From the NCBI GenBank assembly GCA_031458695.1, contig JAVKJW010000007.1, forward strand, positions 28,219 to 92,218: a stretch of 64,000 nt of DNA, given 5' to 3'. Made by a program: the position numbers and the translations under genes. This document shows positions 14,707-28,430 of the stretch, one piece after another. Numbering within the stretch: position 1 is the first letter of the stretch; every line of letters begins with the position of its first letter. The notes under the pieces are model-generated. The model was given only the letters and a program-made list of their open reading frames with translations, did not search any database and was not told the origin of the DNA. Source of the stretch: Candidatus Thermofontivivens primus. Its GTDB lineage: Bacteria > Sysuimicrobiota > Sysuimicrobiia > Sysuimicrobiales > Thermofontiviventaceae.

Positions 14707-16077
14707 TCAGGGGTCAACCCGCGCTCCTGTGTCCTGGAGGCGCAGCTGGATGAGACCGACGAGCTCCTTCCGCCGAATCAAGAAATGGGGTGTGAGCCGG
14801 TATTCCACTGCCACGGCCGCTGTCACACCGGCGGCCTCCCCCATCGCCATGGTCGTCGGCACGACCCGGGCGGAGCCAGCTGCCTGGTAGGTTGCAGAGA
14901 ACGCCCGGCTGGCCACAAGGAGGTTGTCGATCCCACGGACGATCAAGCTCCGCAGGGGGATGGTGTAGATCCTTCGCTTTGGGGCAAAGGGGGAACGTTC
15001 CCCCGGCTTATAAGGGTGCAAGTCGATGGGATAGGAGGCAACCGCGATCCTGTCCCAGAAGATCCTGTGGGTCAAGATGTCTCCCGCGCTGAGGACATAC
15101 AGCCCCTTGATGTGCCGCGTCTCCCGGATATACAACTCCGGCGCCACCTCGATGAGGTAGGCGCTCTCGAACCCCGGGGCATGGTCCCGCAGGTAGGAGA
15201 CGAAGGCTGGCACGAGGCGTTTGGCCCGGGTGTAGGCGTCCTTCCGGGAAGCGCGGCTCGTCCCGTCCACGCCAAAGAGTTGCAGGGAGTTCACCCAGAC
15301 GGTCCCGTCCGGCTGGCGGCCCAGGTTGAGGTCTACCGCCGCGATCTTGGGATCGGGCGAACGAAACCCCTTCACGACCTCGCGGTAGCCCCACGCGTAC
15401 CCGAAGCGGACCCCGCCGCGGCGGAACGGCTTGTCCTTCTTGCGGATGTAATCGGTCACCGCCGCCCAGTCCACGCCTCCAACGCGGAACACGAGCGTGG
15501 CGGCCTGCATCAACCGGTCAATCCCGGATTCCTCCCGTCCCAGGGTATATTCGGCCCCAGCGGCGGCCGCGAAGTCCCCATCGTCCGTTGCATCGATGGT
15601 CACAGGGGCCAGGATCATCCATCGCCTGCCCCGGTGTTGGACAATCGATCCCAGGACTGCATTCCCCTTCCGCACCGGATGGAGGAACTGGGTACTGAGG
15701 TAAACCCGGATCCTCCTTTCAGAAGCGACCTTGCGCGCAAAGAACTCTCGCGCGGCCCGGGGGTCGAAGGTCAACCCCAGCGCGCGGAACACTTCCGCGA
15801 AGATCCCCTCTACGAGGTTGCCTCCGTCGTCCCTGTGGTTGAGATCGAAGGTGTTGAGCATCGCACCTGTCAGGACCGTCCCGAGGAAAGGCCTGGGTTC
15901 GATGAGGACGACAGATCGCCCTTGCCGCGCTGCAGCGAGTGCAGCCGCGATCCCTCCCGGGCTCCCCCCAACGACCAGGACGTCTGCACGCTCCGGAACT
16001 TGGTAGACAGCGGGTTGGGCCAGGAGGGGGAGGGCGAGGGTGAATACCAGGATCAAGAGCAAAACCACCCTTCTCAT
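14707..16077 (-). CDS. Secreted FAD-dependent oxidoreductase (FAD_oxidored / GIDA-like fold)
   Basis: Signal-peptide-like N-terminus (MRRVVLLLILVFTLALPLLAQP) followed by an FAD Rossmann motif (VLVVGGSPGGIAAALAAARQG). Confidence 0.65.
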   Translation of the reverse strand: MRRVVLLLILVFTLALPLLAQPAVYQVPERADVLVVGGSPGGIAAALAAARQGRSVVLIEPRPFLGTVLTGAMLNTFDLNHRDDGGNLVEGIFAEVFRALGLTFDPRAAREFFARKVASERRIRVYLSTQFLHPVRKGNAVLGSIVQHRGRRWMILAPVTIDATDDGDFAAAAGAEYTLGREESGIDRLMQAATLVFRVGGVDWAAVTDYIRKKDKPFRRGGVRFGYAWGYREVVKGFRSPDPKIAAVDLNLGRQPDGTVWVNSLQLFGVDGTSRASRKDAYTRAKRLVPAFVSYLRDHAPGFESAYLIEVAPELYIRETRHIKGLYVLSAGDILTHRIFWDRIAVASYPIDLHPYKPGERSPFAPKRRIYTIPLRSLIVRGIDNLLVASRAFSATYQAAGSARVVPTTMAMGEAAGVTAAVAVEYRLTPHFLIRRKELVGLIQLRLQDTGARVDP

Positions 16078-16191
16078 CCTCGTTGCAAGTCCCCCCTGAG
16101 GTCTCTAGCGCCCATCTTGCTCGGGAGGTTCCAACCGCACTCCATCAGCCCACGGGTTCCCTGCCATCCAAGAAAGCGAGAGAACGCGATA

Positions 16192-16689
16192 TCAGATCTT
16201 CGGCGTGGGAAGTTCCCAGGTAGGCGCGTGCTCCCGCTTGTACACCATGATCGTGCGCTTGAACTCGATCACCACCACCCCATCCTGGTTGAACCCAATG
16301 GTCCTCACCTTTACGATGCCCATGTGTGGGCGAGATCTCGACTCCCGTTTTTCCAGTACCTCGCTCTGAGCATAAATGGTATCCCCCTCGAAGACAGGAT
16401 GCGGCAGGCGGACCTCCTCCCAACCCAGGTTGATGGCGTTTTGGGAGATATCGGCAACTGTAAGCCCCGTCACAATCGCAAGGGTGAGCGTAGAGTCCAC
16501 AAGCGGCCTTCCGAACTCCGTTCTGGAGGCGTACACTTGGTCGAAGTGGATGGGGTTGGTGTTCACCGTGAGCAGGGTGAACCAAATGTTGTCCGTCTGG
16601 GTGATGGTACGTCCAATGGGGTGGCGGTACACCTCGCCAACGACGAAGTCCTCGTAGAACCTTCCCTGCCTCATCTTCTGGCCCTGCAT
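16192..16689 (-). CDS. MaoC-like (R)-specific enoyl-CoA hydratase/dehydratase (hot-dog fold)
   Basis: About 165 aa. The hot-dog fold motifs (FTLLTVNTNPIHFD, PVFEGDTIYAQSEVLEKRES, GIVKVRT) are typical of MaoC dehydratases (mesaconyl-/itaconyl-CoA hydratase class). Confidence 0.75.
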   Translation of the reverse strand: MQGQKMRQGRFYEDFVVGEVYRHPIGRTITQTDNIWFTLLTVNTNPIHFDQVYASRTEFGRPLVDSTLTLAIVTGLTVADISQNAINLGWEEVRLPHPVFEGDTIYAQSEVLEKRESRSRPHMGIVKVRTIGFNQDGVVVIEFKRTIMVYKREHAPTWELPTPKI

Positions 16690-16853
16690 GCCCAGATCCC
16701 TTCCCTTCCAGGAGATCATGGATTTCCCGGGTGAACAGCTTGCCTCGCGTGCATTCTACAAAGCACCTCTTTTGAGGAAAGCATCTTTCGAGGGATTCAC
16801 GACCCTTTCCTGTCAGCACCGCGGAAATCCCACGGAGATCTTTGTGCGGTCCC

Positions 16854-18080
16854 TCAGGTGGATGCGCGTGCCTGCTCGCAAGATGCGCTCCCGAGAACAA
16901 TCCCTACCCCGACCAGCGCGACGAGGCCCAGGGAGCTGAACGCCCACCCCCACCCCCCGAAGGCATCCAGAAGGAAGCCAAAGAGGGCTGGGGAGATGGC
17001 GCTTGCGGCGAAACCCAGCGAGGATTGGATGGCTAGGGTGGTTCCAAGTGCCTCCGGGTCCGCGGATTCGGCGACGGCAGTAGAGAGGGTGCTAGACTCT
17101 GCAGTGACGAGGAGGCCGTAAAGGGTAGCGAGGGGCAAGATGACGCGCAGACCATACGGCAGGAGCCAACCGACGCTCAACGAACAGGCCGCTGAGGCGG
17201 TCAGGAAAAGGACGATAGTAGGCCGTCGCCCGAGGTGATCCGAAAGCCATCCTCCCGTGGCGTTGGAGATCGCGCTGGCCACGAGCACCAATCCGCCAAA
17301 GGCGGAGGCGCGTGCCGTCGCCTGGCCAAGAGGAACGTGGGCGGCCACCCAGCCCGCGGTGAGGAAACTGGGGAGCCAAGCCCGCATCCCAAAGAGCTCC
17401 CAGTTGTGCGCGGCGTAGGCAAGGGAGAAGCGGAGGGCGCGCGCGTTCTGGAGAGCCTGGCGGAAGGGAATCCGGCGGGCACGGAGGGGTCGGATATCGA
17501 ACACCACGGACCAAGCGATCACTGAGGCCGCCAAGGGCCCTAGACCACTTATCATGAACGCCATGCGCCATCCCCGTCGGAGCAACAGGGATGTCGCAAA
17601 CAGCGACGCCGCAGCTCCGAGGCTGAAAGCGCTGATATACATCCCCATGGCAGCTCCTCTCCGTCCTGGGGGAGCTCGCTCGACAACAAGGCGCATGCCA
17701 GGTACGTATGTCCCCGCTAACCCAATGCCGCACAGGATGCGAAAGAATGCAGCGGATCGAAAGTCGTTCGCCAGGAGTGCGAAAAGTAGACTCGCCAATC
17801 CGTTCAACACCGAGGAGAAGAGATAGATCCTCCGCACGCCGACGAGGTCTGTCAGGGAACTCAGGACGAGGACGGCCACCGTGTAACCGATCTGCTGCAT
17901 GGCGAAGACCCCTCCTGCCTGTGCACCCGTCATACGCCATTCCACGCGCAGGAGCGGGAGGGTCCCGGAGTACGTACCGAAGGTGAGCATCGTTCCTAGT
18001 TCCGCCAAGGAAAGCCACAAAAGCCAGGGAGTGAACCGCACCGTCTTGGAACCAGTACAGCCCGCCGTTCTCATGGCCAA
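16854..18080 (-). CDS. MFS transporter
   Basis: 408 aa with about 12 TM segments and an MFS motif (the GIGLAGTYVPGMRLVVERAPPGRRGAAMG region). Confidence 0.75.
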   Translation of the reverse strand: MAMRTAGCTGSKTVRFTPWLLWLSLAELGTMLTFGTYSGTLPLLRVEWRMTGAQAGGVFAMQQIGYTVAVLVLSSLTDLVGVRRIYLFSSVLNGLASLLFALLANDFRSAAFFRILCGIGLAGTYVPGMRLVVERAPPGRRGAAMGMYISAFSLGAAASLFATSLLLRRGWRMAFMISGLGPLAASVIAWSVVFDIRPLRARRIPFRQALQNARALRFSLAYAAHNWELFGMRAWLPSFLTAGWVAAHVPLGQATARASAFGGLVLVASAISNATGGWLSDHLGRRPTIVLFLTASAACSLSVGWLLPYGLRVILPLATLYGLLVTAESSTLSTAVAESADPEALGTTLAIQSSLGFAASAISPALFGFLLDAFGGWGWAFSSLGLVALVGVGIVLGSASCEQARAST

Positions 18081-18246
18081 ACCCTTATGCCTTCCTAGTC
18101 CCTGGGACCAATCCCAAGCGCCACGTACGCAGAGGATTACGACATGAAAAGACTTCTCTCCTGTGCCATTACCTCAAAGGCAAACGTTCCTGGTCAGCGA
18201 GCCGCCAGAAGCGCGCATTGTAACGGGTAGGAGCTCTTTCCTTGAG

Positions 18247-18293
18247 GCTATTAACAGGTGCTATTGACAGGTGCAGAGGTAGTGTTTTAGAAT
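18247..18293 (+). promoter_or_regulatory. Sigma70-like promoter (TTGACA-N18-TAGAAT) overlapped by a 13-bp tandem direct repeat GCTATT(A/G)ACAGGT x2
   Basis: -35 TTGACA at 18264-18269 and -10 TAGAAT at 18288-18293, with an 18-nt spacer. The direct repeats at 18247-18259 and 18260-18272 are a candidate operator for the adjacent IclR regulator. The region is divergent from the MFS gene. Confidence 0.5.
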
Positions 18294-18321
18294 GTTTCAC
18301 AAAGAAGACTACTATGCCACA

Positions 18322-19140
18322 ATGTGGAACGCCAGCCTCGGGGTATCTTCTAGAGTAACCCAGAAGGGTCCGAAGGAACACAAGGTCGTTTCCGCGGTTA
18401 CCCGTGCTGCGCGTATCCTCGTTGCGCTTGCAGAAAGCTCCTCTGCCCTCACCCTCTCGGATCTCACCAAGCGTGTCGGGATCCCCAAAAGTACTGTGCT
18501 TCGCATCTGCCTCACCTTATGCAAATCTGGGCTCCTCGTCCGGCTCCATGATGGGAGGTTCCGGCTTGGGCCGCTGTGTCTACGACTAGGGACCGCTTAC
18601 CAGAATACGTTCCGGCTATCCGATCATGTGATTCCCGTCCTGCAGACCCTCGTCCAGAAGACTGGTGAGAGCGCCTCGTTCTTCATTCGCGAGGGAGACA
18701 AACGCATCTGCCTGTTCCGGGTCGACTCACCAAAGATGGTTCGGGTGTTCTCCCAGGTTGGCGACCATTTCCCCCTGGACCGGGGGGCCGCTGGAAAGGT
18801 CTTGCTCGCGTTCTCTAACGCACAAACCGCGGATTCGCCTAGTTTCCAAGAGATCCGGGAGTCCCTGTACGCAGTCTCCTATGGAGAGCGCGACCCTGAG
18901 GTAGCGGCGGTAGCGTGCCCTGTGTTTGGCCGAGATCAGGTCCTTGTGGGCGCAATCAGCGTCGCAGGTCCGAAGGCAAGGTTTTCCCACGCAGAGATCC
19001 AAAGGGCCTCCAACCTCGTTCGGGCGGAGGCTGCTCGGCTCACGGCTGTGTTAGGGGGCGATCCCACGGTATTCGAGCGTGCAACGAAAAAACTGCGGGA
19101 TTCAAGAACAACCTCACAAGGGGGTGAGCATAATGGCTAA
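18322..19140 (+). CDS. IclR-family transcriptional regulator
   Basis: N-terminal HTH (VTRAARILVALAESSSALTLSDLTKRVGIPKSTVLRICLTLCKSGLL) and a C-terminal IclR effector domain. Start moved to 18322 because the ATG at 18292 overlaps the predicted -10. Confidence 0.7.
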   Translation: MWNASLGVSSRVTQKGPKEHKVVSAVTRAARILVALAESSSALTLSDLTKRVGIPKSTVLRICLTLCKSGLLVRLHDGRFRLGPLCLRLGTAYQNTFRLSDHVIPVLQTLVQKTGESASFFIREGDKRICLFRVDSPKMVRVFSQVGDHFPLDRGAAGKVLLAFSNAQTADSPSFQEIRESLYAVSYGERDPEVAAVACPVFGRDQVLVGAISVAGPKARFSHAEIQRASNLVRAEAARLTAVLGGDPTVFERATKKLRDSRTTSQGGEHNG

Positions 19141-20245
19141 TTGGGTTCGCATGAGTGTTGCAATCCTCGCCTTGGTGGCTCTTGTGCTGCCAGCGGGTGC
19201 GGCTCCAGCGACACCAGGACTTCCTGCATACTATCCTGCCGACTACAGCCGGATCATCGAAGCTTCCAAGGCCGAGGGCAAGCTGCTCATCTACTCGATC
19301 ATGTCCGCCCGGAACTGGGCGCCGGTGCTTGCAGAGTTCAAGAAGCTCTATCCCTGGCTAGAGGTGGAAACACTCGACCTCGGTTCGTATGAGGTGTTTG
19401 AGCGGTACTACGCGGAGTCGGCAAGCGGTGCACGGACCGCAGACATGATGATCTCCATCGCCCCGGACGCTTGGCAAGAGTTTGTCCAGAAAGGACAGGC
19501 CGTTGCCTACGAATCCCCGGAATCCCGCTTCATCCCCACCTGGGCCAAGTTTGGGAAAGAAATCTACATGGTCTCTGCGGACCCAATGGTGTTCATCTGG
19601 AACAAGCGCGCCCTGCGCCCCGAGCTGTGGCCAAAGGGAATGGCACAGCTTGCGGAACTCGTCCAGCAGAACCCACAAACCTTCCGCAACCGCCTGACCA
19701 CATACGATGCGGAGCGTGTGGCAACGGGGTTCGCCATCAACTGGTTCTGGATCAAACGCCATGGTGAGCGGGGGTGGCGCATTCTGGAGACGCTTGCGCG
19801 TGCGGGAGTGAGAGCCCAGAGCAGCGCAGGCCGCATGATCGATAGCGTGCTCGCTGGAGAGAGTGTGGTGGGCTATTTCGTTTCCACCATCTCTGTCTTC
19901 CCAAGGTTCCCCGCTGCCGAACCTGTGCTAGGGTGGGGGATGATCGAGGACGGCACTCCTGTGGCGAACCGCGGGATGGCCATCACCCGCGCGGCGCGGA
20001 GCCCGAATGCCGCCCGTCTCATGCTGGATTTCATCCTTTCCCAGGCCGGCCAGATCGCGTTTGCGGAGGGGGGCCTGACGGCATACCGTCCTGATGTGGC
20101 TGGAAAGGCCAAGTACCATTTGACCGATCTCGCCAAGGCCATCGGGGAGAAGAACCTGATCATCTTCTCCTATGACAAGGACCTGATGGACAAGGCCAAG
20201 CGGGAGGCCTTCCTGGCCCGCTGGAAGAAGATCTACCAGCGCTAG
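19133..20245 (+). CDS. ABC transporter substrate-binding protein (SBP family 1, FbpA/iron(III)-like)
   Basis: Signal peptide (MANWVRMSVAILALVALVLPAGAAP) then a type-II periplasmic binding fold. Operon with a fused two-domain FbpB-type permease and a TOBE-containing ATPase. Confidence 0.75.
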   Translation: MANWVRMSVAILALVALVLPAGAAPATPGLPAYYPADYSRIIEASKAEGKLLIYSIMSARNWAPVLAEFKKLYPWLEVETLDLGSYEVFERYYAESASGARTADMMISIAPDAWQEFVQKGQAVAYESPESRFIPTWAKFGKEIYMVSADPMVFIWNKRALRPELWPKGMAQLAELVQQNPQTFRNRLTTYDAERVATGFAINWFWIKRHGERGWRILETLARAGVRAQSSAGRMIDSVLAGESVVGYFVSTISVFPRFPAAEPVLGWGMIEDGTPVANRGMAITRAARSPNAARLMLDFILSQAGQIAFAEGGLTAYRPDVAGKAKYHLTDLAKAIGEKNLIIFSYDKDLMDKAKREAFLARWKKIYQR

Positions 20246-20248
20246 TAC

Positions 20249-21964
20249 ATGGAAGTTGCGGCGATCATCCACAGGGCTGAGCGAGCGGGAGTGGTGGACC
20301 GGCTCGTGCAGGGGCTCGTCGCCCTCGTAACCATCTTCCTCGTGGCGTTGCCCCTTGTGCCCATCCTCTACCAGAGCTTCCTCTCCAGTCCATTGTACGA
20401 GCCGAGCCGGGCCCTAACGCTCTCCAACTACATCCGGCTCCTAGAGAATCCGGAGTTCCGGAAGGTCCTCTCCAACACTCTGGTGTTCGCTATCGCTACA
20501 ACTGCCCTTGGCGTGGTATTGGGCACCATCCTGGCTATCCTCATTATGCGCACAGACATGCCAGGACGGACTTACCTATCGGGGTTGGTCATCTCTCCTC
20601 TGTTCCTGAGCCCACTCGTCATCGCCTTTGCCTGGACGGTGATCTTTGGGCCGCAGGGATACCTGACCCAGCTCTTCCGAAGCCTCGCTGGTAGGGACCC
20701 GTGGAACCTGTACTCTCTTGGAGGGATGGCTATCCTGGGCGGGGTCTACTACGCGCCCTATACCTACCTCTATGCCTCGGGAAGCCTCGCGCTCTCGGAT
20801 CCTTCGGTGGAAGATGCGGCACGTATCGCTGGTGCTGGACCCCTGCGGACGTTATGGCGGGTAACGCTCCCTCTCCTCCGGCCGGCACTCCTGTATAGTG
20901 GCCTGTTGACGTTCATCGCTGCCGCAGAGGTTCTCAGCATCCCCCTTGTCCTGGGGACGCCTGTAGGGATTGAGCTTTTCTCCTCCTTCCTCTATAAGCT
21001 TGGGATCGTAGGCGGAACGACAGAATACGGGATGATCGCCGCAGCTTCAGTGCTGGTGCTCGTTTTCCTGACACTCCTCATCGCGCTCCAGGAGCGGCTG
21101 CTCGGAGGGCGGCGTCGGTTCGTCACGGTGACAGGGCGGGCGACACGTGCGCGCCTCCTTTCGCTGGGTCGGATCCGGTGGGCTGCGGCCGCATGGTGCT
21201 GGCTTTACGTCTTCCTGGCGATCATCCTCCCGCTTGTCGGGATCGTCGCCCAGTCCTTCACGGCCTTCCTAAGCCCCTTCATGAACCCTTTGGAGGTCAT
21301 GACCCTGGATCATTACCGGTTGATCTTTGGCCATAGCGCCTACGCACGGTCCATCCTCAACAGCTTCCTCATCGCCTTCGCAGGAGGTGCTGTAGGGATC
21401 CTGTTCATGGCCCTTGTGACCCTTGTGGCGTTCCGTTCCGACTTCCCGCTTCGGAGACTTTTGATTTACGTTGCCCTTTACCCCCGGGCAATCCCTGGGA
21501 TCATCGTGGGCATCGGGTTCCTGTGGACATTCCTCCTCCTCCCAGGGCTGGGGGCGTTGCGCAACACGATCCTTGGTCTCACCCTTGCGTTCATCACACG
21601 ATACATCCCCTATGGCTTCGGTGCGGTGAGCCCTGCGGTCTTCCGAGTTAGCGAGGAGATGGACCGAGCCGCTCGCGTTGTGGGTGCGAGCTGGATCACA
21701 ACCATCCGCAAGGTCCTCCTGCCACTTCTCCGGGAGGCTCTCTTCGGAGGATACGCCCTCTTGTTCATCACGTTCCTGAAGGAGTACGCCTCAGCGGTCT
21801 TTCTCTTCGCCCGCGGGAGTGAAGTCATGGGGACAACCATGATCGAGCTGTGGCGCCAGGGAGACAGCGGCCCCGTGTCGGCCCTGGCTGTCGTGCAGGT
21901 TGTGCTCACGCTTCTCTGGCTTGGGATCGCCCGGGGGGTGCTTGGGGTGAAGGTCTATGGCTGA
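20249..21964 (+). CDS. ABC transporter permease, fused two-domain FbpB-type
   Basis: 571 aa with two tandem BPD_transp_1 domains and two EAA-like loops (EDAARIAGAGPLRTLWRVTLP and DRAARVVGASWITTIRKVLLP). Confidence 0.8.
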   Translation: MEVAAIIHRAERAGVVDRLVQGLVALVTIFLVALPLVPILYQSFLSSPLYEPSRALTLSNYIRLLENPEFRKVLSNTLVFAIATTALGVVLGTILAILIMRTDMPGRTYLSGLVISPLFLSPLVIAFAWTVIFGPQGYLTQLFRSLAGRDPWNLYSLGGMAILGGVYYAPYTYLYASGSLALSDPSVEDAARIAGAGPLRTLWRVTLPLLRPALLYSGLLTFIAAAEVLSIPLVLGTPVGIELFSSFLYKLGIVGGTTEYGMIAAASVLVLVFLTLLIALQERLLGGRRRFVTVTGRATRARLLSLGRIRWAAAAWCWLYVFLAIILPLVGIVAQSFTAFLSPFMNPLEVMTLDHYRLIFGHSAYARSILNSFLIAFAGGAVGILFMALVTLVAFRSDFPLRRLLIYVALYPRAIPGIIVGIGFLWTFLLLPGLGALRNTILGLTLAFITRYIPYGFGAVSPAVFRVSEEMDRAARVVGASWITTIRKVLLPLLREALFGGYALLFITFLKEYASAVFLFARGSEVMGTTMIELWRQGDSGPVSALAVVQVVLTLLWLGIARGVLGVKVYG

Positions 21965-23072
21965 GCTGGTGGTGGAGGGGCTTCGCAAGCGCTTCGATGG
22001 CGTCCTGGCTGTGGACGGGGTGAGCTTTACCGTCCGCGACGGGGAGATGGTGACTCTCTTAGGGCCATCAGGGTGCGGGAAATCCACGACCCTCAATTGT
22101 ATCGCCGGGTTGGAGGTTCCAGACGAAGGAGTCATCAAGTTTGGGGACCGCATCCTCACCGACACACGGCGGGGGATCTTCCTGCGTCCCGAGGCGCGCA
22201 ACGTCGGCATGGTATTTCAGTCCTATGCGCTCTGGCCCCACATGACGGTGTTCGAAAACTTAGCCTTCGGGCTCCGCATGCGCAGGGTCCCCCAGGCGGA
22301 GATCCGGCGGCGCATCGAATGGATCCTGTCCTTGTTACAGCTTGAAGGCTTTGAGCATCGATACCCACACCAGCTGTCCGGTGGGCAACAGCAGCGCATT
22401 GCTCTTGCGAGGGCCCTCGTCTATGAACCGAGTATCCTGTTGCTCGATGAACCGTTGTCCAACTTGGATGCCAAGCTCCGGGAGCAGGCACGGTTCTGGT
22501 TGCGGGAGTTGCAGCAGCGGCTCCGCATCACAGCGATCTATGTGACCCACGACCAAGCAGAGGCCCTGGCGCTTTCAGACCGCGTGGTGGTGATGAACCG
22601 TGGTCGCATTATGGCCATCGGAACCCCACGGGAGATCTATGAGCTCCCTCCAAACCCCTTCGTGGCCGATTTTATCGGCTCCTGTAACTTCCTCCATGGT
22701 CATATCGAGACCATCGGGGAAGCGAACCGGATTACTGTGAAGTTGGAGAAGGGAATTCCGTTGCAGGCCTCCGCCCTGTACCGGTTTTCCCCTGGGCAGC
22801 CGGTGATCGTGGCAGTGCGGCCACAACGAATCCGCATCCATACTGATGGTCCTAAGGAGACGAACACCCTCCCCGGGAAGGTAGAGTCAGGCTTATACTT
22901 GGGAGCGTCGTTCCAGTATGTCCTCGAAACCCCCGTGGGAACGCTGCGTGTAGAAGCAACAGAGCCTGTGCAGGGGGAGGTCACCCTCTACCTGCCGCCG
23001 GAGTGGTGCATTGTGCTTCCCGCATCGGATTCTGGAGACGAGGGAGGGAGCCCTGCGGATGCTGCCACTTGA
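21957..23072 (+). CDS. ABC transporter ATP-binding protein with C-terminal TOBE domain (FbpC/PotA class)
   Basis: Walker A GPSGCGKST, signature LSGGQQQRIALARAL, Walker B LLLDEPLSNLD. Confidence 0.85.
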   Translation: MAELVVEGLRKRFDGVLAVDGVSFTVRDGEMVTLLGPSGCGKSTTLNCIAGLEVPDEGVIKFGDRILTDTRRGIFLRPEARNVGMVFQSYALWPHMTVFENLAFGLRMRRVPQAEIRRRIEWILSLLQLEGFEHRYPHQLSGGQQQRIALARALVYEPSILLLDEPLSNLDAKLREQARFWLRELQQRLRITAIYVTHDQAEALALSDRVVVMNRGRIMAIGTPREIYELPPNPFVADFIGSCNFLHGHIETIGEANRITVKLEKGIPLQASALYRFSPGQPVIVAVRPQRIRIHTDGPKETNTLPGKVESGLYLGASFQYVLETPVGTLRVEATEPVQGEVTLYLPPEWCIVLPASDSGDEGGSPADAAT

Positions 23073-24240
23073 GGATCTCCGTGTGCTGGATCTGTCCCGC
23101 CTTGTGGCAGGGAACATGCTGACCCTTGTCCTTGCGGATTTCGGCGCAGATGTGGTCAAAGTGGAGCAGCCCGGAGTCGGGGACCCGCTACGAACCTGGA
23201 AGACGAACAACCTGGACCTGTGGTGGAAGGTCTATGCGCGGAACAAACGGAGCATCACACTGAACCTGGCGCACCCGCAAGGACGCTCCCTCCTGTTGCA
23301 GATGGTCGACCACTTCGATGTGCTCGTGGAGAATTTCGTCCCTGGCACGCTCGAGCGATGGGGGATCGCCCCGGATGTCTTGCTCGCCCGGAATCCACGG
23401 CTCGTCGTGGTCCGGATCTCCGGATGGGGGCAGACAGGGCCATACCGGGAGAGGCCAGGGCTTGGAACGTTGATCGAGGCCATGAGCGGGTTTGCGGCCA
23501 TGACAGGATTTCCTGATCGACCGCCGACCCTGCCGCCATTTCCCCTCGCCGATATGGTTGCAGCTCTGTGGGGCGTTGCGGCAACGGTCATCGCCGTCTC
23601 CCATGCGCGGCGGTCGGGAAACGGGCAGGTCATCGACCTCGCCATTCTTGAACCGCTTTTTGCCATCCTGGGACCTGTCGCTGCCGAGTATCGGTTGGCA
23701 GGGAAAGTGCGGGAACGGATCGGCAACCGATCGTACAATGCCGCGCCCCGAAATACCTACAAGACCGCGGACGGCCAGTGGGTGGCCATCTCTGCATCCA
23801 CTCCCCATACTGCCGCCCGCCTGTTCGAGGCCCTTGGGCTGTCTGAGCTTCTTTCTGACCCTCGGTTTGCGACAAACGAGGCCCGGGTCCAGCACGCAGA
23901 AGCGCTCGACGAGATCCTCGGGGAAGCGATCGGGAGGTATACGCTCCAGGAATTGATGGAACTGTTCACACGCCACGAAGTAACTGCCGCACCGGTGTAT
24001 AATGTTGCACAACTCCTCGCAGATCCGCACGTCCAAGCGCGTGCGCTGGTGATCGAGGTAGAGGACCCCCAGTTGGGAAGAATTCCCATGCATCTCCCCC
24101 TCCCCCGTCTTACGGGCACACCGGGTGCAATCCGTTGGCCCGGCCCTCCCCTTGGGGCCCACAACGAGGAGTTCTATCGAGGGGAACTTGGACTTACGAC
24201 TGCAGAACTAGAACGATTGAAGGCAGAAGGTGTGATTTAG
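23059..24240 (+). CDS. Family III CoA-transferase (CaiB/BaiF family)
   Basis: N-terminal LRVLDLSRLVAGNMLTLVLADFGADVVKVE and interlocked-dimer family motifs (GWGQTGPYRERPGLGTLIEAMSGF). Start at MLPLEDLRV. Confidence 0.8.
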   Translation: MLPLEDLRVLDLSRLVAGNMLTLVLADFGADVVKVEQPGVGDPLRTWKTNNLDLWWKVYARNKRSITLNLAHPQGRSLLLQMVDHFDVLVENFVPGTLERWGIAPDVLLARNPRLVVVRISGWGQTGPYRERPGLGTLIEAMSGFAAMTGFPDRPPTLPPFPLADMVAALWGVAATVIAVSHARRSGNGQVIDLAILEPLFAILGPVAAEYRLAGKVRERIGNRSYNAAPRNTYKTADGQWVAISASTPHTAARLFEALGLSELLSDPRFATNEARVQHAEALDEILGEAIGRYTLQELMELFTRHEVTAAPVYNVAQLLADPHVQARALVIEVEDPQLGRIPMHLPLPRLTGTPGAIRWPGPPLGAHNEEFYRGELGLTTAELERLKAEGVI

Positions 24241-24315
24241 GTAGCTCAGTGTTCAGAAGGAGACTGAGCAAAACTCCTGGGCCTCTTGCGAGGTGCCTGG
24301 AAGAGGAGGATGCCT

Positions 24316-25077
24316 ATGGAAGCGTGGAGGACGTCGATTTCTACCTATGATCGCGACCGCATCATCCTGCGGGGATACCGCGTGGAGGATCTCATGCATC
24401 GCGGGAACTTTGGGGATGTGGCATTCTTGCTTCTCCGCGGCCGCATGCCCTCCCCTGCCGAGTCCAGACTGTGGAATGCGATCCTCATCGCCTCCTCAGA
24501 CCATGGACCCACTCCCCCTTCCACCATGGCCGCGCGTGTCATCGCCAGCGGAAACCGGAAGGCGGTGGAGGCTGCTGTTGCAGGAGGCTTGCTCGCAATA
24601 GGGGATGCGCATGGCGGGGCGGGAGAGGAAGCGATGCGGATGTTGCAGGAAGGGATCGAGTTGATCTCTCGCGAGGGGATCTCTGTGGAGGAAGCTGGAA
24701 GACAGCTCGTGCAGCGATACCGGATGGAGGGCAAGAGGATCCCAGGTGTGGGACACAGGGTGCACGAGCGAGATCCGAGAACCGTGGCCCTGTGGGCGAT
24801 GGCCAAGGAGGAAGGAATTGCCGAACTTCCCATTGCCCTGATGCAAGCCATTGCCGATGCCCTCTCCATGCAGGTCGGTCGAACGCTCCCGGTGAACGTG
24901 GACGGAGCGCTTGCGGCCGTCTTGCTGGGCCTGGAATTCCCTCCTGAAGTCGGGAAACTCGTGTTCATCCTCGGCCGGTGCGCAGGCATCGCGGCACATG
25001 TGGTGGAGGAACTGACGCGGGAGGCGCCTATGAGGATCCACGTGCCGTTCACTTACGATGGCCCACAACCGGAATAG
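24316..25077 (+). CDS. Short citrate-synthase-fold protein (citryl-CoA lyase-like / citrate synthase small-domain homolog)
   Basis: About 253 aa, carrying the citrate-synthase catalytic signature GHRVHERDPR, the DHG/HGGA region (SSDHGPTPPSTMAARV, GDAHGGAGEEA) and the C-terminal D-x-containing helix. Length and motifs resemble Ccl-type citryl-CoA lyase rather than full-length citrate synthase. Confidence 0.55.
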   Translation: MEAWRTSISTYDRDRIILRGYRVEDLMHRGNFGDVAFLLLRGRMPSPAESRLWNAILIASSDHGPTPPSTMAARVIASGNRKAVEAAVAGGLLAIGDAHGGAGEEAMRMLQEGIELISREGISVEEAGRQLVQRYRMEGKRIPGVGHRVHERDPRTVALWAMAKEEGIAELPIALMQAIADALSMQVGRTLPVNVDGALAAVLLGLEFPPEVGKLVFILGRCAGIAAHVVEELTREAPMRIHVPFTYDGPQPE

Positions 25078-25106
25078 GTTGCGAGCAAGCGCACAGGATT
25101 TCGAAG

Positions 25107-26483
25107 ATGCGTGACCCGTACCTCGAAGTGTTCGCAGCATATGCACGGAGCATCCAGTGGAAGGATCTCCCGCAGGAAACGGTCCATGAAGTGAAACGCC
25201 GTATCCTCGACTCCCTCGGAGTGGCACTGCTAGCTTTAGGAGCAGAGGCCGTTGCTGCAGCACGGAACCTTGCCTATGAAGTTGCTTCCCCACGAGGCGC
25301 GAGCATCTGGGGAACGCGAGTCAGGGCATCTCCAGACCTCGCTGCCTTTGTCAATGGGATCATGGTCCGCACGCTCGACTACAACGATACTTACCTGTCT
25401 CGGGAGCCACTCCACCCAAGCGATATGATCGCCCCCCTGATGGCAGTCGCAGAATATCGGGACTGCCCGACCACGGAGCTGGTCACCGCAATCGCGGTGG
25501 CATACGAGATTGGTGTCTCCCTGTGCGATGCCGGGAGTCTACGCAAACACGGGTGGGACCATGTCAATTATCTGGGAGTTGCGACTGCCTCCGCAGCAGG
25601 GCGTCTTTTCGGCTTAGAACCGGAGGCCTTGGAGCATGCGATCTCCCTGACAGTTGTGCCGCACGCCGCCATGCGCCAGACGCGTTCGGGGGAGCTCTCC
25701 ATGTGGAAGGGAGCTGCGGCTGCCAATGCCTGTCGCAACGCCATTTTCTCCTGTCTTTTAGCGGCAAAGGGGATGAGGGGCCCATTCCAACCATTTGTGG
25801 GGGAGATGGGGTTTATCCGCCAGCTCCTCAAGGGTGAGGAGTTCGATCAGGAGGCCTTCAGGTCTCTCCAGGAACGGCGGCCGCCGCGGAGGATCCTGGA
25901 CACATCCCTAAAGTATTGGCCGGTAGAATACCATGCCCAGACTGCGGTAGACGCGGCTCTTCAGGTGCGCGGAGAGATTGAAGATCCGAGTCGTATCTCC
26001 CACATCGAGATCCATACTTTCAAGGCCGCCTATGAGATCATTGCCAAAGACCCCGAGAAATGGGCGCCTCAGACACGGGAGACGGCGGATCATTCCCTGC
26101 CCTATACCGTGGTCGTTGCCCTTCTCGATGGGGAGCTCACATGGCGATCGTTCGACCCAGAGCGCTTCTCGGATCCTCTGATCCGGAAGATGCTTGCAGA
26201 GCATACCACACTGTGGGAGGACCCTGCACTCACAGCGGCTTACCCGCAGGCGGTCCCTAACCGCATTGTCGTGCGGACCAGGGATGGGTCCGAGGTCGTA
26301 CGGGAGGTATGGTATCCGCGCGGCCACGTGCGCAATCCCATGACCGACGAGGAGGTCGTGGAGAAGTTCCGGAAAAACGTCAGCGGGGTGCTCCCAACAG
26401 CCAAGGCTGAGCGACTTGTAGAGTGCGTGATGGGGATCGAGCGATCTTCGATCCATGAGATTGTGGACCTCATGGTGGTTTGA
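25107..26483 (+). CDS. MmgE/PrpD-family protein (2-methylcitrate dehydratase / cis-aconitate decarboxylase family)
   Basis: 459 aa with family-wide motifs (TLDYNDTYLSREPLHPSDMIAPLMAVAE and the KHGWDHVNYLGVATASAAGRL region). Confidence 0.8.
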   Translation: MRDPYLEVFAAYARSIQWKDLPQETVHEVKRRILDSLGVALLALGAEAVAAARNLAYEVASPRGASIWGTRVRASPDLAAFVNGIMVRTLDYNDTYLSREPLHPSDMIAPLMAVAEYRDCPTTELVTAIAVAYEIGVSLCDAGSLRKHGWDHVNYLGVATASAAGRLFGLEPEALEHAISLTVVPHAAMRQTRSGELSMWKGAAAANACRNAIFSCLLAAKGMRGPFQPFVGEMGFIRQLLKGEEFDQEAFRSLQERRPPRRILDTSLKYWPVEYHAQTAVDAALQVRGEIEDPSRISHIEIHTFKAAYEIIAKDPEKWAPQTRETADHSLPYTVVVALLDGELTWRSFDPERFSDPLIRKMLAEHTTLWEDPALTAAYPQAVPNRIVVRTRDGSEVVREVWYPRGHVRNPMTDEEVVEKFRKNVSGVLPTAKAERLVECVMGIERSSIHEIVDLMVV

Positions 26484-26641
26484 GTGGAAGCTCACCCAGC
26501 AACGCCTCCGTCCGTCGGCACTCAACCGTACTCTCCTGTATTCCTGTCAAACCATCTTCTCGGTTCCAAGACCTTGTCTTGGGGTAGCAGCCCTGCTATA
26601 CTGGTTGTAACGTTTGTATACTCTGTAAACAAAAGAGACAG

Positions 26642-28035: not shown

Positions 28036-28041
28036 CTTCTC

Positions 28042-28344: not shown

Positions 28345-28430
28345 TACGTTCTACCCCCTGAGAGATGAAGGGGCAAGTCATCCAAGAGCTCTTGACAAGG
28401 CTAAGGTCTTGAGGTACCATATTCCACAAA

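What the first reader, a model, noticed from the sequence alone, without database searches (positions are those of the whole stretch)
16192..26483. CoA-dependent branched C5/C6-dicarboxylate catabolic cluster using a citrate-synthase-fold lyase
The cluster holds a MaoC hydratase, an MFS transporter, an IclR regulator, an FbpABC-type importer, a family-III CoA transferase, a short citrate-synthase-fold (Ccl-like) protein and an MmgE/PrpD protein. This resembles itaconate, mesaconate or citramalate degradation, which runs CoA transferase, then MaoC hydratase, then acyl-CoA lyase. In known pathways the lyase is HpcH/CitE-type. Here the only lyase candidate has the citrate-synthase fold. The PrpD-family enzyme and the Fe(III)-type ABC importer could instead point to a methylcitrate-like or aconitate-like substrate. 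The pathway is not one I can assign.
Basis: inference. Interest (0 to 1): 0.6.

Follow-up and report, generated by a model that had tools for sequence, protein, structure and literature searches.

The report
CoA-transferase-fed citryl-CoA lyase uptake operon
A hot-spring Armatimonadota bacterium carries a tight operon that probably imports a citrate-like acid, loads it onto coenzyme A without spending ATP and splits it with a short citrate-synthase-like lyase, a pairing that is widespread, that I found described in no paper, and that sits beside methylcitrate-cycle genes.

Summary
The short citrate-synthase-like protein is a full-length citryl-CoA lyase (CCL) homologue, not a truncated pseudogene. 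The "cluster" is two units.

**Conserved unit.** This is a plus-strand operon: IclR, ABC importer, family III CoA-transferase, CCL-like lyase, PrpD (18292-26483). In ~80%-identical relatives it continues into a bona fide methylisocitrate lyase (PrpB).

**Non-conserved unit.** The divergent MFS, MaoC hydratase and FAD-oxidoreductase genes occur only in 99%-identical strains. No hydratase homologue lies near the lyase in about 100 other loci, so the itaconate-style route (transferase, then hydratase, then lyase) is poorly supported.

**Evidence on function:**
- The lyase subfamily is almost always paired with a CoA-transferase, where classical CCLs are paired with ATP-dependent citryl-CoA synthetase.
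- It keeps every citrate-synthase catalytic and oxaloacetate-binding residue.
- The binding protein's closest solved structure is the Thermus metal-citrate binder MctA.
- This PrpD clade sits in canonical prpD-prpB-prpC operons elsewhere.

**Best reading.** The operon takes up a citrate or 2-methylcitrate-type acid and cleaves it, without ATP, to acyl-CoA plus oxaloacetate. The substrate is not identified. I rate it a new variant of a known kind, of moderate interest.

The parts
18292..19140 (+). IclR-family regulator, first gene of the conserved operon. Its stop overlaps the next gene's start by 8 bp.
   Evidence: The protein matches PF09339 and PF01614. It is 81% identical in L093/L094, and DNA homology with those relatives begins inside this gene at 18392.
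18264..18293 (+). Best sigma-70-like promoter match (TTGACA-18-TAGAAT, 11 of 12), in the divergent intergenic region between the MFS and IclR genes.
   Evidence: The match comes from the consensus scan. It is a pattern match only, not evidence of function.
19133..20245 (+). Substrate-binding protein of the ABC importer, an MctA-like fold.
   Evidence: - It matches PF13531, PF01547 and PF13343.
- The PDB sequence search puts the 7F6E series first at 1e-45.
- The AlphaFold model has pLDDT 92.
- Foldseek's top hits are MctA, the metal-citrate-binding protein, at TM 0.82-0.92.
- Three Arg (R91, R280, R319) are invariant in 29 homologues.
- The MctA residues that were mutated in that PDB series are not conserved here.
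20249..21964 (+). Fused double permease of the ABC importer (571 aa).
   Evidence: It has two PF00528 stretches. It is conserved at 52-91% identity in L006, L021, L026, L040, L042, L044, L047, L093 and L094.
21957..23072 (+). ABC ATPase with a TOBE domain.
   Evidence: It matches PF00005 and PF08402 and is conserved together with the permease.
23059..24240 (+). Family III CoA-transferase, proposed to form the CoA ester of the imported acid.
   Evidence: - It matches PF02515 at 402 bits.
- Its nearest characterised relatives are succinate-glutarate and succinate-hydroxymethylglutarate CoA-transferases.
- An orthologue lies immediately upstream of the lyase in 26 of 44 species-level loci whose lyase is at least 48% identical.
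- It is 52% identical to the Aureimonas transferase, which instead precedes a CitE-type lyase.
24316..25077 (+). Citryl-CoA-lyase-like protein (short citrate-synthase fold, 253 aa), proposed to cleave the CoA ester by a retro-Claisen reaction.
   Evidence: - It scores 245 bits on NF004869, above the cut-off of 212.
- It aligns end to end with the 268-aa CCL chain 6hxp at E 1e-46.
- More than 1000 homologues are known, and those listed are mostly 247-271 aa.
- H63, H99, H147, R155, D196, R221 and R240 are conserved in 86-87 of 87 family members.
- The subfamily signature N80-R81 occurs only in the subfamily that holds the CoA-transferase-linked loci.
25107..26483 (+). PrpD-clade MmgE/PrpD protein (458 aa), probably a 2-methylcitrate dehydratase; last gene of the operon in this strain.
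   Evidence: - It matches PF03972 and PF19305.
- It is 100% identical to P0121 from an Armatimonadota MAG.
- It is 56-66% identical to PrpD proteins in acs-prpD-prpC, prpD-prpB-prpC, prpD-prpC and prpD-prpB operons.
- It scores the same on the PrpD models as the canonical-operon protein from L096.
26484..26485 (.). Synteny breakpoint directly after the prpD stop codon. Relatives have prpB here, and the near-identical strains have a PucR regulator.
   Evidence: Homology with L104-L106 (99.3%) ends at 26485, and homology with L093/L094 ends at 26480. No PrpB-like sequence occurs anywhere in the window.
16854..18074 (-). MFS transporter, first gene of the divergent neighbouring unit; not part of the conserved operon.
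   Evidence: It matches PF07690. It is absent near the operon in L093/L094 and in all other loci.
16192..16689 (-). MaoC-type (R)-hydratase of the half-size mesaconyl-/itaconyl-CoA hydratase type; a neighbour not conserved with the operon.
   Evidence: - It matches PF01575 and PF19315.
- It scores 204 bits on the RipB/Ich model, below the cut-off of 340.
- Its best PDB match is the beta-methylmalyl-CoA dehydratase 8hgn.
- No homologue occurs in any locus outside the 99%-identical strain copies.
14707..16077 (-). PF12831 FAD-dependent oxidoreductase, last gene of the divergent unit; function unknown.
   Evidence: It scores 318 bits on PF12831. It has no informative PDB relative and is not conserved with the operon.

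Best explanation
**The functional unit.** It is the plus-strand operon IclR, MctA-like ABC importer, family III CoA-transferase, CCL-type lyase and PrpD. In relatives it continues into PrpB.

**Proposed mechanism, with each step marked as shown or inferred:**
1. The importer takes up a citrate-type hydroxy-tricarboxylate. This is inferred from the binding protein's fold and from the alternative TctCBA transporters found in other lineages.
2. The CoA-transferase moves CoA from an acyl-CoA donor (succinyl-CoA, or the acyl-CoA product itself) onto the carboxymethyl arm, without ATP. This is inferred: in this lyase subfamily the transferase occupies the position that ATP-dependent citryl-CoA synthetase holds next to classical CCL.
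3. The CCL-like enzyme splits the (methyl)citryl-CoA into acetyl- or propionyl-CoA plus oxaloacetate. This is inferred from the complete conservation of the citrate-synthase catalytic and oxaloacetate-binding residues.
4. PrpD, with housekeeping aconitase and, in relatives, PrpB, links the operon to 2-methylcitrate. It either degrades the PrpD-competent isomer directly to pyruvate plus succinate, or it disposes of propionyl-CoA released by the lyase.

**Net effect.** The system would be a free-CoA analogue of citrate lyase.

**What is left out and left open.** The MFS, MaoC and FAD-oxidoreductase genes are a strain-specific neighbouring unit and not part of the pathway. The exact substrate (citrate, a 2-methylcitrate isomer or a close analogue) is not established.
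For: **Operon conservation**
- The genes are tightly spaced.
- The block IclR through PrpD is conserved exactly in L093/L094.

**The lyase**
- It is full-length relative to solved CCL and above the NCBIfam cut-off.
- The catalytic and oxaloacetate-binding residues are conserved in 86-87 of 87 members.

**Pairing with the activating enzyme**
- Among loci with at least 48% lyase identity, 26 of 44 have an orthologous CoA-transferase immediately upstream and 7 of 44 have a paralogous one immediately downstream.
- Among loci with 47% identity or less, 34 of 36 have none.
- The one such locus I annotated (L063) carries both CCS subunits plus aconitases.
- The N80-R81 signature separates the two subfamilies cleanly.

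**Transporter always adjacent**
- ABC importers accompany the pair in L001, L006, L021, L026, L040, L042, L044, L047, L093 and L094.
- TctCBA transporters accompany it in L004, L009, L013, L014 and L049.

**Binding protein.** Its closest solved relative is the citrate-binding MctA.

**Non-orthologous lyase swap**
- Aureimonas has IclR, ABC, an orthologous CoA-transferase (52%), a CitE-type lyase and RraA.
- From my own knowledge, citryl thioester cleavage is the activity that the CCL and CitE families have in common.

**Link to methylcitrate**
- Three separate PrpD lineages and PrpB lie beside ABC, CoA-transferase and Ccl.

**Transferase relatives.** The nearest characterised ones act on glutarate-backbone acids.
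Against: - There is no biochemical evidence.
- The six MctA residues that were mutated in the PDB series (four of those mutants are apo) are all replaced in the window protein by I, S, I, V, A and I. The ligand is therefore not bound as Mg-citrate is in MctA.
- Binding proteins at 36-42% identity occur in unrelated contexts with hydrolases and nitrilases.
- If 2-methylcitrate were cleaved to propionyl-CoA plus oxaloacetate and then re-made by PrpC, the result would be a futile loop. If the substrate is plain citrate, the recurrent PrpD/PrpB linkage is unexplained.
- The extra subfamily-specific Arg (R81) suggests a substrate that is not identical to that of classical CCL.
- The same transferase-lyase pair also sits next to PEP-mutase-type and ADP-ribosylglycohydrolase genes, so its substrate may differ between contexts.
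Confidence: 0.45

Rival explanations
1. **Thioester-conserving (or reversed) methylcitrate pathway.**
- The lyase condenses propionyl-CoA with oxaloacetate to 2-methylcitryl-CoA.
- The transferase then passes the CoA to succinate or propionate, replacing PrpC and PrpE.
- With PrpD, aconitase and PrpB the net reaction is propionyl-CoA + oxaloacetate = pyruvate + succinyl-CoA.
- The pathway could run in either direction.
For: - The operons contain prpD and prpB but never a full-length prpC, whereas the same PrpD/PrpB clades elsewhere sit in prpD-prpB-prpC operons.
- Three PrpD lineages were recruited independently.
- A reverse methylcitrate cycle has been proposed for M. tuberculosis (PMC6851703).
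- By my own estimate from textbook equilibrium data, the net reaction equals that of the methylmalonyl-CoA route and lies near equilibrium.
Against: - A high-affinity importer always accompanies the pair, and the minimal unit in L001, L006 and L044 is importer, transferase and lyase without PrpD or PrpB.
- L001 has a prpD about 10 kb away, at the position where L096 has prpD-prpB-prpC, so the pair appears to be added to the canonical operon and not to replace it.
- The citrate-lyase equilibrium (K about 0.3-0.9 M, own knowledge) would hold free methylcitrate at nanomolar to low micromolar levels in the condensing direction.
- In the sister subfamily the lyase's partner is an ATP-dependent ligase that activates the free acid, which points to cleavage.
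Confidence: 0.2
2. **The first reader's pathway.** A branched C5 dicarboxylate (itaconate or mesaconate) is activated by the CoA-transferase and hydrated by the MaoC enzyme. The citrate-synthase-fold protein then cleaves it as a citramalyl-CoA or beta-methylmalyl-CoA lyase. In the beta-methylmalyl case propionyl-CoA would be released and passed to PrpD.
For: - MaoC matches the mesaconyl-CoA hydratase family, its best PDB hit is a beta-methylmalyl-CoA dehydratase, and it scores 204 bits on the RipB/Ich model.
- It is transcribed divergently from the IclR gene, so the two units could share one regulatory region.
- The transferase scores 180 bits on the succinyl-CoA:mesaconate CoA-transferase model.
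- A lyase that produces propionyl-CoA would explain the PrpD/PrpB linkage.
Against: - The MaoC unit is absent from the ~80% relatives that keep the whole operon.
- No MaoC homologue occurs in any other locus.
- RipB/Ich scores below its cut-off.
- The oxaloacetate-binding Arg and His residues are invariant.
- No acyl-CoA dehydrogenase is present, and PrpD is not in the methylsuccinate isomerase context (PMC12290011).
Confidence: 0.1
3. **A generic 2-substituted malate cleavage module.** The transferase-lyase pair would act on citramalate, malate, homocitrate or phosphonomethylmalate. Its substrate here would be unrelated to methylcitrate, and prpD would lie beside it only through shared regulation or chance.
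For: - The pair occurs in at least three other contexts.
  - One is TctCBA with a PEP-mutase or phosphonopyruvate-hydrolase-type protein carrying the EDKxFPKxTS motif.
  - One is sugar ABC transporters with ADP-ribosylglycohydrolases.
  - One is Acidobacteriota loci with a paralogous transferase.
- This subfamily carries an extra Arg at position 81.
- The binding pocket differs from that of MctA.
Against: PrpD and/or PrpB adjoin the pair in 9 loci from several phyla, involving three different PrpD lineages and two transporter types. That is hard to ascribe to chance.
Confidence: 0.15
4. The short citrate-synthase-like ORF is a truncated, inactive remnant of a normal citrate synthase.
For: It lacks the N-terminal roughly 100-150 residues of citrate synthase; the Pfam match covers profile positions 162-353 only.
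Against: - It aligns end to end with the solved 268-aa CCL.
- More than 1000 homologues of similar length exist.
- All catalytic residues are intact.
- Only 75 bp separate it from the upstream gene.
- It is 90-91% identical in relatives whose DNA has diverged to about 79% identity, which is consistent with purifying selection.
Confidence: 0.01

Closest known systems
Citryl-CoA synthetase / citryl-CoA lyase (CCS/CCL) of Hydrogenobacter thermophilus, the two-step citrate cleavage of the reductive TCA cycle; solved CCL chain 6HXP
   Same: - The lyase has the same short citrate-synthase fold and length, with an end-to-end alignment (E 1e-46).
- It passes the NCBIfam citryl-CoA lyase subfamily model.
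- All catalytic and oxaloacetate-binding residues are the same.
- The gene for the activating enzyme lies immediately upstream of the lyase gene.
   Different: - Activation is by a family III CoA-transferase instead of the ATP-dependent two-subunit CCS. I verified CCS in L063.
- The lyases belong to a separate subfamily (N80-R81 versus G-V; about 45% identity).
- The pair is linked to a high-affinity importer, an IclR regulator and PrpD/PrpB, which indicates catabolism and not CO2 fixation.
Bacterial citrate lyase CitDEF (citrate:acetyl-ACP transferase CitF, citryl-ACP lyase CitE, ACP CitD)
   Same: The proposed chemistry is the same: acyl transfer onto citrate, then cleavage to oxaloacetate with regeneration of the acetyl thioester, and no ATP used. 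In the Aureimonas locus the equivalent position is held by a CitE-family lyase.
   Different: - No ACP or holo-ACP maturation genes are present.
- Free CoA esters are used.
- The transferase is family III, not CitF-type.
- The lyase has the citrate-synthase fold, not the CitE TIM-barrel.
Methylcitrate cycle operons (prpBCDE; prpD-prpB-prpC in Armatimonadota, Chloroflexota and Bacillota relatives)
   Same: The PrpD is 56-66% identical to those in canonical operons. The PrpB of relatives passes TIGR02317 (393 bits, cut-off 354).
   Different: - There is no full-length 2-methylcitrate synthase and no propionate-CoA ligase.
- A CoA-transferase, a CCL-like lyase and an importer are present instead.
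- PrpB is missing in this window.
Itaconate / methylsuccinate degradation clusters (Ict-Ich-Ccl of Yersinia pestis and Pseudomonas aeruginosa; Msi and Mcd of saprophytes; PMC12290011, PMC13491972)
   Same: Both have a family III CoA-transferase, an MmgE/PrpD-family protein and a MaoC-type hydratase nearby. The overall logic of CoA transfer followed by C-C cleavage is shared.
   Different: - The lyase fold differs (citrate synthase versus HpcH/CitE).
- The hydratase is not conserved with the operon.
- No acyl-CoA dehydrogenase is present.
- The PrpD protein belongs to the methylcitrate dehydratase clade.
MctA metal-citrate ABC importer of Thermus thermophilus HB8 (PDB 7F6E, 7F6F, 7F6K)
   Same: It is the best structural and sequence match of the binding protein (TM 0.82-0.92, about 30-34% identity). 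The gene order is the same: binding protein, fused permease, ATPase.
   Different: - The residues S26, D28, S79, S164, T199 and Y221 of MctA are I, S, I, V, A and I here.
- The Thermus locus has no CoA-transferase or lyase.

Membership tests
Citryl-CoA lyase (CCL, short citrate-synthase-fold lyases) | A protein of about 250-270 aa matching only the C-terminal two-thirds of citrate synthase, full-length relative to the solved CCL | tested here: met
   It is 253 aa. Its Pfam match covers PF00285 profile positions 162-353. Residues 13-250 align to residues 4-233 of the 268-aa chain 6hxp at E 1e-46.
Citryl-CoA lyase (CCL, short citrate-synthase-fold lyases) | Score above the curated NCBIfam cut-off for a citryl-CoA lyase model | tested here: met
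   NF004869 scores 245.1 bits against a cut-off of 212, and NF004868 scores 210.3 against 193. The equivalog model NF004864 scores 195 against 261 and is not met.
Citryl-CoA lyase (CCL, short citrate-synthase-fold lyases) | Catalytic His/His/Asp and the oxaloacetate-binding His and Arg residues of citrate synthase | tested here: met
   H63, H99, H147, R155, D196, R221 and R240 are present and conserved in 86-87 of 87 members. The mapping to pig citrate synthase H238, H274, H320, R329, D375, R401 and R421 rests on motifs and my own knowledge.
Citryl-CoA lyase (CCL, short citrate-synthase-fold lyases) | Partnered with ATP-dependent citryl-CoA synthetase (CCS) | tested here: not met
   The upstream gene is a family III CoA-transferase. 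CCS is found next to a sister-subfamily lyase in L063.
Citryl-CoA lyase (CCL, short citrate-synthase-fold lyases) | Cleaves (3S)-citryl-CoA to acetyl-CoA plus oxaloacetate | not testable with these tools
   This needs an enzyme assay.
Itaconate degradation cluster (Ict, Ich, Ccl) | Itaconyl-CoA hydratase (RipB/Ich or PA0878 type) encoded with the transferase and lyase | tested here: not met
   MaoC scores 204 bits on RipB/Ich, below the cut-off of 340. It lies in a divergent unit absent from L093/L094 and from all other loci.
Itaconate degradation cluster (Ict, Ich, Ccl) | (S)-citramalyl-CoA lyase of the HpcH/CitE type | tested here: not met
   No such gene lies between 14.7 and 27.5 kb. The only lyase has the citrate-synthase fold.
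Itaconate degradation cluster (Ict, Ich, Ccl) | MmgE/PrpD member acting as methylsuccinate isomerase, always adjacent to methylsuccinyl-CoA dehydrogenase (PMC12290011) | tested here: not met
   No acyl-CoA dehydrogenase is in the cluster. The PrpD clade sits in prp operons.
Methylcitrate cycle operon (prp) | 2-methylcitrate dehydratase PrpD | tested here: inconclusive
   It scores below all three NCBIfam PrpD cut-offs: 232 against 950, 187 against 575 and 156 against 458. However, it is 56-66% identical to, and scores the same as, PrpD proteins in five canonical prp contexts.
Methylcitrate cycle operon (prp) | Methylisocitrate lyase PrpB | tested here: not met
   It is absent from the whole window. 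It is present in relatives L093/L094, where it scores 393 bits on TIGR02317 against a cut-off of 354.
Methylcitrate cycle operon (prp) | Full-length 2-methylcitrate synthase PrpC | tested here: not met
   Only the 253-aa CCL-like protein is present. The canonical operons have citrate synthases of 376-386 aa.
MctA-type metal-citrate ABC importer | Binding-protein fold and the operon order binding protein, fused permease, ATPase | tested here: met
   
MctA-type metal-citrate ABC importer | The residues probed by mutation in the MctA PDB series (S79A, S164A, T199A, Y221A and Y221F crystallised apo; S26A and D28A still bound ligand) | tested here: not met
   The aligned residues are I109, V, A and I, with I56 and S58 at the S26 and D28 positions.

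The most novel reading that the evidence does not exclude
The transferase and the CCL-like lyase replace 2-methylcitrate synthase (and propionate-CoA ligase), so that the methylcitrate pathway keeps its thioester. The net reaction would be propionyl-CoA + oxaloacetate = pyruvate + succinyl-CoA. That would be a reversible route, independent of B12 and biotin, equivalent to the methylmalonyl-CoA (Wood-Werkman) route. It could save ATP during propionate oxidation, or it could make propionyl-CoA from pyruvate and succinate.
Probability: 0.15. Interest if true: 0.85.

Novelty: new variant of a known kind. Interest (0 to 1): 0.55.

Why it matters
**If confirmed**
- The transferase-lyase pair would be a third way to split citrate-type acids. 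The known ways are ATP-citrate lyase or CCS/CCL, and the ACP-dependent citrate lyase. This one needs neither ATP nor an acyl carrier protein.

**Distribution**
- The pair is found across Armatimonadota, Chloroflexota, Acidobacteriota and Proteobacteria.
- It is routinely annotated 'citryl-CoA lyase'. Where such annotations are taken as markers of the reductive TCA cycle, autotrophy could be wrongly inferred for heterotrophs that carry this subfamily. The N80-R81 signature and the neighbouring gene (CoA-transferase versus CCS) give a simple way to tell the two apart.

**Open question**
- The repeated fusion with prpD and prpB raises a testable question: is 2-methylcitrate, a toxic by-product of propionyl-CoA metabolism, scavenged as a nutrient in hot-spring mats, or does a thioester-conserving methylcitrate pathway exist?

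Tried and rejected
**Literature.** Nine full-text searches found no description of a CoA-transferase and citryl-CoA-lyase system. No paper contains the word 'methylcitryl-CoA'. The MctA paper is not in the library; the identity of the 7F6E series came from the PDB entry titles.

**Ligand of the binding protein from context.**
- The Thermus mctA locus has no transferase or lyase.
- Binding proteins at 36-42% identity sit in unrelated hydrolase contexts.
- The Klebsiella plasmid copy has only a two-component system next to it.
- The S. meliloti homologues are only 27% identical, so published transportome data could not be used.
- The metagenome scan with the binding protein returned only two loci. 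They turned out to be the most informative relatives.

**Readings considered and rejected.**
- Truncated pseudogene.
- PrpD as methylsuccinate isomerase, cis-aconitate decarboxylase or IDS epimerase. The PDB scores are lower than for PrpD, and all contexts are prp-type.
- The FAD oxidoreductase as a TcuA-like tricarballylate dehydrogenase. Only the N-terminal FAD-binding motif matches.

**Method caveat.** Greedy longest-ORF gene calling in the GC-rich loci produced antisense artefacts (clusters c6 and c15). I worked around this with tblastn and the listed ORFs.

Full report
**1. What is in the sequence**

Between 14.7 and 26.5 kb the window holds ten intact genes in two divergent units (gene starts follow the calls on the near-identical public contig).

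Minus strand:
- MFS transporter, 16854-18074.
- MaoC-type hydratase, 16192-16689.
- PF12831 FAD-dependent oxidoreductase, 14707-16077.
- These three are separated by 134 and 114 bp.

Plus strand:
- IclR regulator, 18292-19140.
- Substrate-binding protein, 19133-20245.
- Fused double permease, 20249-21964.
- ATPase, 21957-23072.
- Family III CoA-transferase, 23059-24240.
- 253-aa citrate-synthase-fold protein, 24316-25077.
- MmgE/PrpD protein, 25107-26483.
- These genes overlap by 8-14 bp or are separated by 3, 75 and 29 bp, which is operon spacing.

The best promoter-like match lies in the divergent intergenic region (18264-18293). Terminator-like matches are no more frequent than in shuffled sequence.

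The PrpD protein is 100% identical to a protein from an Armatimonadota MAG. Three public contigs are 99.3% identical to window 15107-26485. The left flank encodes a branched-chain polyamine synthase and a trehalose-phosphate synthase/phosphatase fusion. Many relatives come from hot-spring MAGs.

**2. The short citrate-synthase-like protein is not a pseudogene**

- It aligns over its whole length with the solved 268-aa citryl-CoA lyase 6HXP (E 1e-46).
- It exceeds the curated cut-off of an NCBIfam citryl-CoA lyase subfamily model (245 bits against 212).
- It has more than 1000 homologues; those listed are mostly 247-271 aa.
- In an alignment of 87 family members, H63, H99, H147, R155, D196, R221 and R240 are conserved in 86-87 sequences.
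- By their motifs (DHG, GDAHGGA, GHRVH...DPR, NVDG, GR, PMR) these residues correspond to pig citrate synthase H238, H274, H320, R329, D375, R401 and R421. That set is the full catalytic triad plus the oxaloacetate-binding residues. The mapping rests on my own knowledge of citrate synthase.

**3. The conserved unit**

Two metagenome contigs, L093 and L094, carry proteins 79-95% identical to the window's. They share DNA homology with the window exactly from 18392 (inside IclR) to 26480 (the end of prpD) and nowhere else.

- They have the same order: IclR, binding protein, permease, ATPase, CoA-transferase, lyase, PrpD.
- They continue into a PrpB that passes the methylisocitrate lyase equivalog model (393 bits against 354) and then a two-domain glyoxalase-family protein.
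- They have no MFS, MaoC or FAD-oxidoreductase gene nearby; a leucyl aminopeptidase lies upstream instead.

A tblastn at E < 1e-4 against all the loci fetched up to that point (just over 100) found no MaoC or FAD-oxidoreductase homologue. The only exceptions were the 99%-identical strain copies.

The window has no PrpB-like sequence anywhere. Its similarity to both sets of relatives stops within 2 bp of the prpD stop codon.

**4. The lyase always travels with an activating enzyme and a transporter**

I fetched 80 species-representative loci encoding relatives of the lyase and compared them with the window's proteins.

| Lyase identity to window | Loci | CoA-transferase orthologue immediately upstream | Paralogous family III transferase immediately downstream | None found |
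|---|---|---|---|---|
| 48% or more | 44 | 26 (52-68% identical) | 7 | 10 |
| 47% or less | 36 | 1 | 0 | 34 |

Each row also has one locus with a transferase elsewhere within 10 kb. Of the 10 in the first row with none found, two are too close to a contig end to tell, and two are Sodalis copies whose transferase is probably truncated, as it is in the closely related locus L010.

The one low-identity locus I annotated (L063, WOR-3) has aconitase, CCS-beta, CCS-alpha, lyase and aconitase. That is the classical ATP-dependent citryl-CoA synthetase/lyase pair.

A four-position signature splits the family (N80-R81, G103 and L203 against G-V, I and I). Of the R81-type loci, 41 of 54 have a transferase within 10 kb. 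Of the V81-type loci, 0 of 31 do.

So, in this subfamily, a CoA-transferase stands where CCS stands in the classical system. I take this as the strongest argument that the transferase makes the CoA ester of a free acid and that the lyase cleaves it.

A high-affinity importer is adjacent in every context I examined:
- The same ABC system occurs in L001, L006, L021, L026, L040, L042, L044, L047, L093 and L094.
- TctCBA occurs in the Proteobacteria and in L049.

**5. Clues to the substrate**

(a) The lyase residues above argue for an oxaloacetate-like product.

(b) The binding protein models confidently (pLDDT 92).
- Its best structural matches are the MctA structures, described in the entry titles as a metal-citrate-binding protein bound to Mg2+-citrate or citrate (TM 0.82-0.92; sequence E 1e-45).
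- Three Arg (R91, R280, R319) are invariant among 29 homologues and are shared with MctA.
- The six MctA residues probed by mutation are I, S, I, V, A and I in the window protein. They are S26, D28, S79, S164, T199 and Y221, and four of the mutants crystallised apo.
- The ligand is therefore probably a polycarboxylate, but it is bound in a less polar pocket and probably without a hydrated metal.

(c) The transferase's nearest characterised relatives act on glutarate-backbone acids. They are succinate-glutarate CoA-transferase (254 bits) and the human succinate-hydroxymethylglutarate CoA-transferase structure. Citrate and methylcitrate have that backbone.

(d) An Aureimonas plasmid has a parallel locus.
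- It carries IclR, a binding protein (42% identical), permease, ATPase and a transferase (52% identical).
- These are followed by a CitE-family 'CoA ester lyase', a 2-hydroxyacid dehydrogenase and an RraA-family protein.
- Cleavage of a citryl thioester is the activity the CCL and CitE families share. RraA-type proteins, and the HpaI-type aldolase found in L026/L047, belong to families known for oxaloacetate decarboxylase activity. Both statements rest on my own knowledge.

(e) PrpD.
- Homologues 56-66% identical to the window's lie in acs-prpD-prpC, prpD-prpB-prpC (twice), prpD-prpC and prpD-prpB arrangements, with full-length citrate synthases of 376-386 aa in four of the five.
- The canonical-operon protein scores the same on the PrpD models as the window's does (228 against 232 bits).
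- The window's PrpD is therefore best read as the 2-methylcitrate dehydratase of these phyla, although it fails the NCBIfam equivalog cut-offs.
- Three different PrpD lineages adjoin the importer-transferase-lyase set: the window type, the L021/L040/L042 type, and an E. coli-type protein in L026/L047 that scores 836 bits against a cut-off of 575. PrpB-type lyases with the K(K/Q)CGH motif occur in seven of these loci.

**6. Most likely mechanism**

- A citrate-type hydroxy-tricarboxylate is imported.
- CoA is transferred onto it from succinyl-CoA, or from the product acyl-CoA as in citrate lyase.
- The ester is cleaved to acetyl- or propionyl-CoA plus oxaloacetate.

Only the cleavage direction is comfortable thermodynamically. 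With the citrate-lyase equilibrium constant near 0.3-0.9 M (own knowledge), condensation without thioester hydrolysis would hold the free tricarboxylate at nanomolar to low micromolar levels.

PrpD and PrpB tie the system to 2-methylcitrate. [quoted passage not shown]

The weak point is the substrate. Plain citrate leaves PrpD and PrpB unexplained. Ordinary (2S,3S)-2-methylcitrate would not need the lyase. A PrpD-inert isomer, or a mixture of isomers, is my best guess, and it is inference only.

**7. Rivals**

- **Thioester-conserving or reversed methylcitrate pathway.** This reading takes the absence of prpC at face value, and it has a precedent in the reverse methylcitrate cycle proposed for M. 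tuberculosis (PMC6851703). Against it stand the ever-present importer and the existence of importer-transferase-lyase units without prpD or prpB. L001 also has a prpD about 10 kb from its transferase-lyase pair, at the position where L096 has prpD-prpB-prpC.
This is possible for this strain only, and it conflicts with the residue conservation.
- **A generic 2-substituted-malate module.** The other contexts of the pair suggest this. In Proteobacteria the third gene is of the PEP-mutase or phosphonopyruvate-hydrolase type (EDKxFPKxTS motif; 288 bits against a cut-off of 319.6 on the PEP mutase model).

**8. Comparison with what is known, and verdict**

In known itaconate and methylsuccinate clusters the lyase is of the HpcH/CitE type and the MmgE/PrpD member is a methylsuccinate isomerase next to an acyl-CoA dehydrogenase (PMC12290011, PMC13491972). 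Neither holds here. The closest known system is CCS/CCL.

The difference is the ATP-independent activation, a distinct lyase subfamily, and the catabolic wiring to an importer and to prpD/prpB. I found no description of this arrangement in the searchable literature.

I rate it a new variant of a known kind, of moderate interest. Its practical consequence is that 'citryl-CoA lyase' annotations of the R81 type should not be read as evidence for a reductive TCA cycle.

Noticed in passing
window 26484-46000: Similarity to the 99.3%-identical public contigs (L104, L105) ends 2 bp after the prpD stop codon. Their right flank holds a PucR regulator, a Liv-type ABC system, an aldehyde dehydrogenase and an aminotransferase. 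The window's right flank has a DUF433 ORF and then a stretch of 50-55% GC against about 61% elsewhere. This is either a strain-specific island or a MAG assembly joint.
   Followed up: partly
window 28431-46085: The low-GC stretch is packed with uptake systems:
- a second IclR gene with a binding protein, an ATPase, an AstE/AspA-like deacylase and two permeases;
- a Dpp/Opp-type peptide ABC system followed by a class A beta-lactamase-like protein (37543-38496) and a D-aminopeptidase of family M55 (38548-39387);
- a Liv-type ABC system.
   Followed up: partly
L093 17379-19413 and L094 (metagenome relatives): After prpD, the ~80% relatives carry a bona fide prpB (393 bits on TIGR02317, cut-off 354) and a two-domain glyoxalase/VOC protein. 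The window has neither. The VOC protein recalls the 'ring-cleaving dioxygenase' gene of the P. aeruginosa itaconate cluster.
   Followed up: partly
L004 (Agrobacterium vitis plasmid CP056044), 528-12433: Two sets of genes lie side by side. The first is LysR, a PEP-mutase-like protein, a full-length citrate synthase and TauE. The second is TctC, TctC, TctB and TctA, then a CoA-transferase, the CCL-like lyase, a PEP-mutase-like protein (EDKVFPKRTS motif, just below the PEP mutase cut-off) and GntR. This may be making and breaking of a phosphonate analogue of citrate (phosphonomethylmalate, via phosphonopyruvate). That is speculation and was not tested.
   Followed up: partly
L092 (Aureimonas sp. 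AU20 plasmid pAU20b), 8135-16674: The architecture is the same (IclR, ABC importer, CoA-transferase), but it is followed by a CitE-type CoA ester lyase, a 2-hydroxyacid dehydrogenase and an RraA-family protein. This looks like a non-orthologous replacement of the lyase.
   Followed up: partly
87-sequence alignment of lyase homologues from the window and loci L001-L090, at window lyase residues 80, 81, 103 and 203: A clean subfamily signature separates the subfamily that holds the CoA-transferase-linked lyases (N-R, G, L) from the V81 subfamily, which includes the CCS-linked L063 (G-V, I, I). The role of the extra arginine R81 is unexplained.
   Followed up: partly
L002, L003, L011, L012, L022, L024, L053: A third context for the transferase-lyase pair. 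L002 and L003 (annotated) have a LacI regulator, a PfkB kinase, a 2-hydroxyacid dehydrogenase, a sugar-type ABC system and two ADP-ribosylglycohydrolase-family genes. The other loci share some of these gene clusters and are listed on that basis. The substrate is unknown.
   Followed up: no
L010 (Sodalis sp. chromosome), 9372-11382: The CoA-transferase is cut to 209 aa and the PEP-mutase-like gene to 131 aa, while the lyase is intact. The locus appears to be decaying.
   Followed up: no
L026 and L047, 10771-13000; L049, 11932-13422: An orphan lipoprotein-type family 1 solute-binding protein is conserved just downstream of the lyase in three Chloroflexota-type loci. In L026/L047 it is preceded by a BioC/Tam-like carboxyl methyltransferase. 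No adjacent permease genes were seen in L026, the only locus checked for this.
   Followed up: no
window 10881-14334: This region encodes a trehalose-6-phosphate synthase/phosphatase fusion (828 aa) and a BpsA-type branched-chain polyamine synthase. Both are consistent with a thermophilic host.
   Followed up: no
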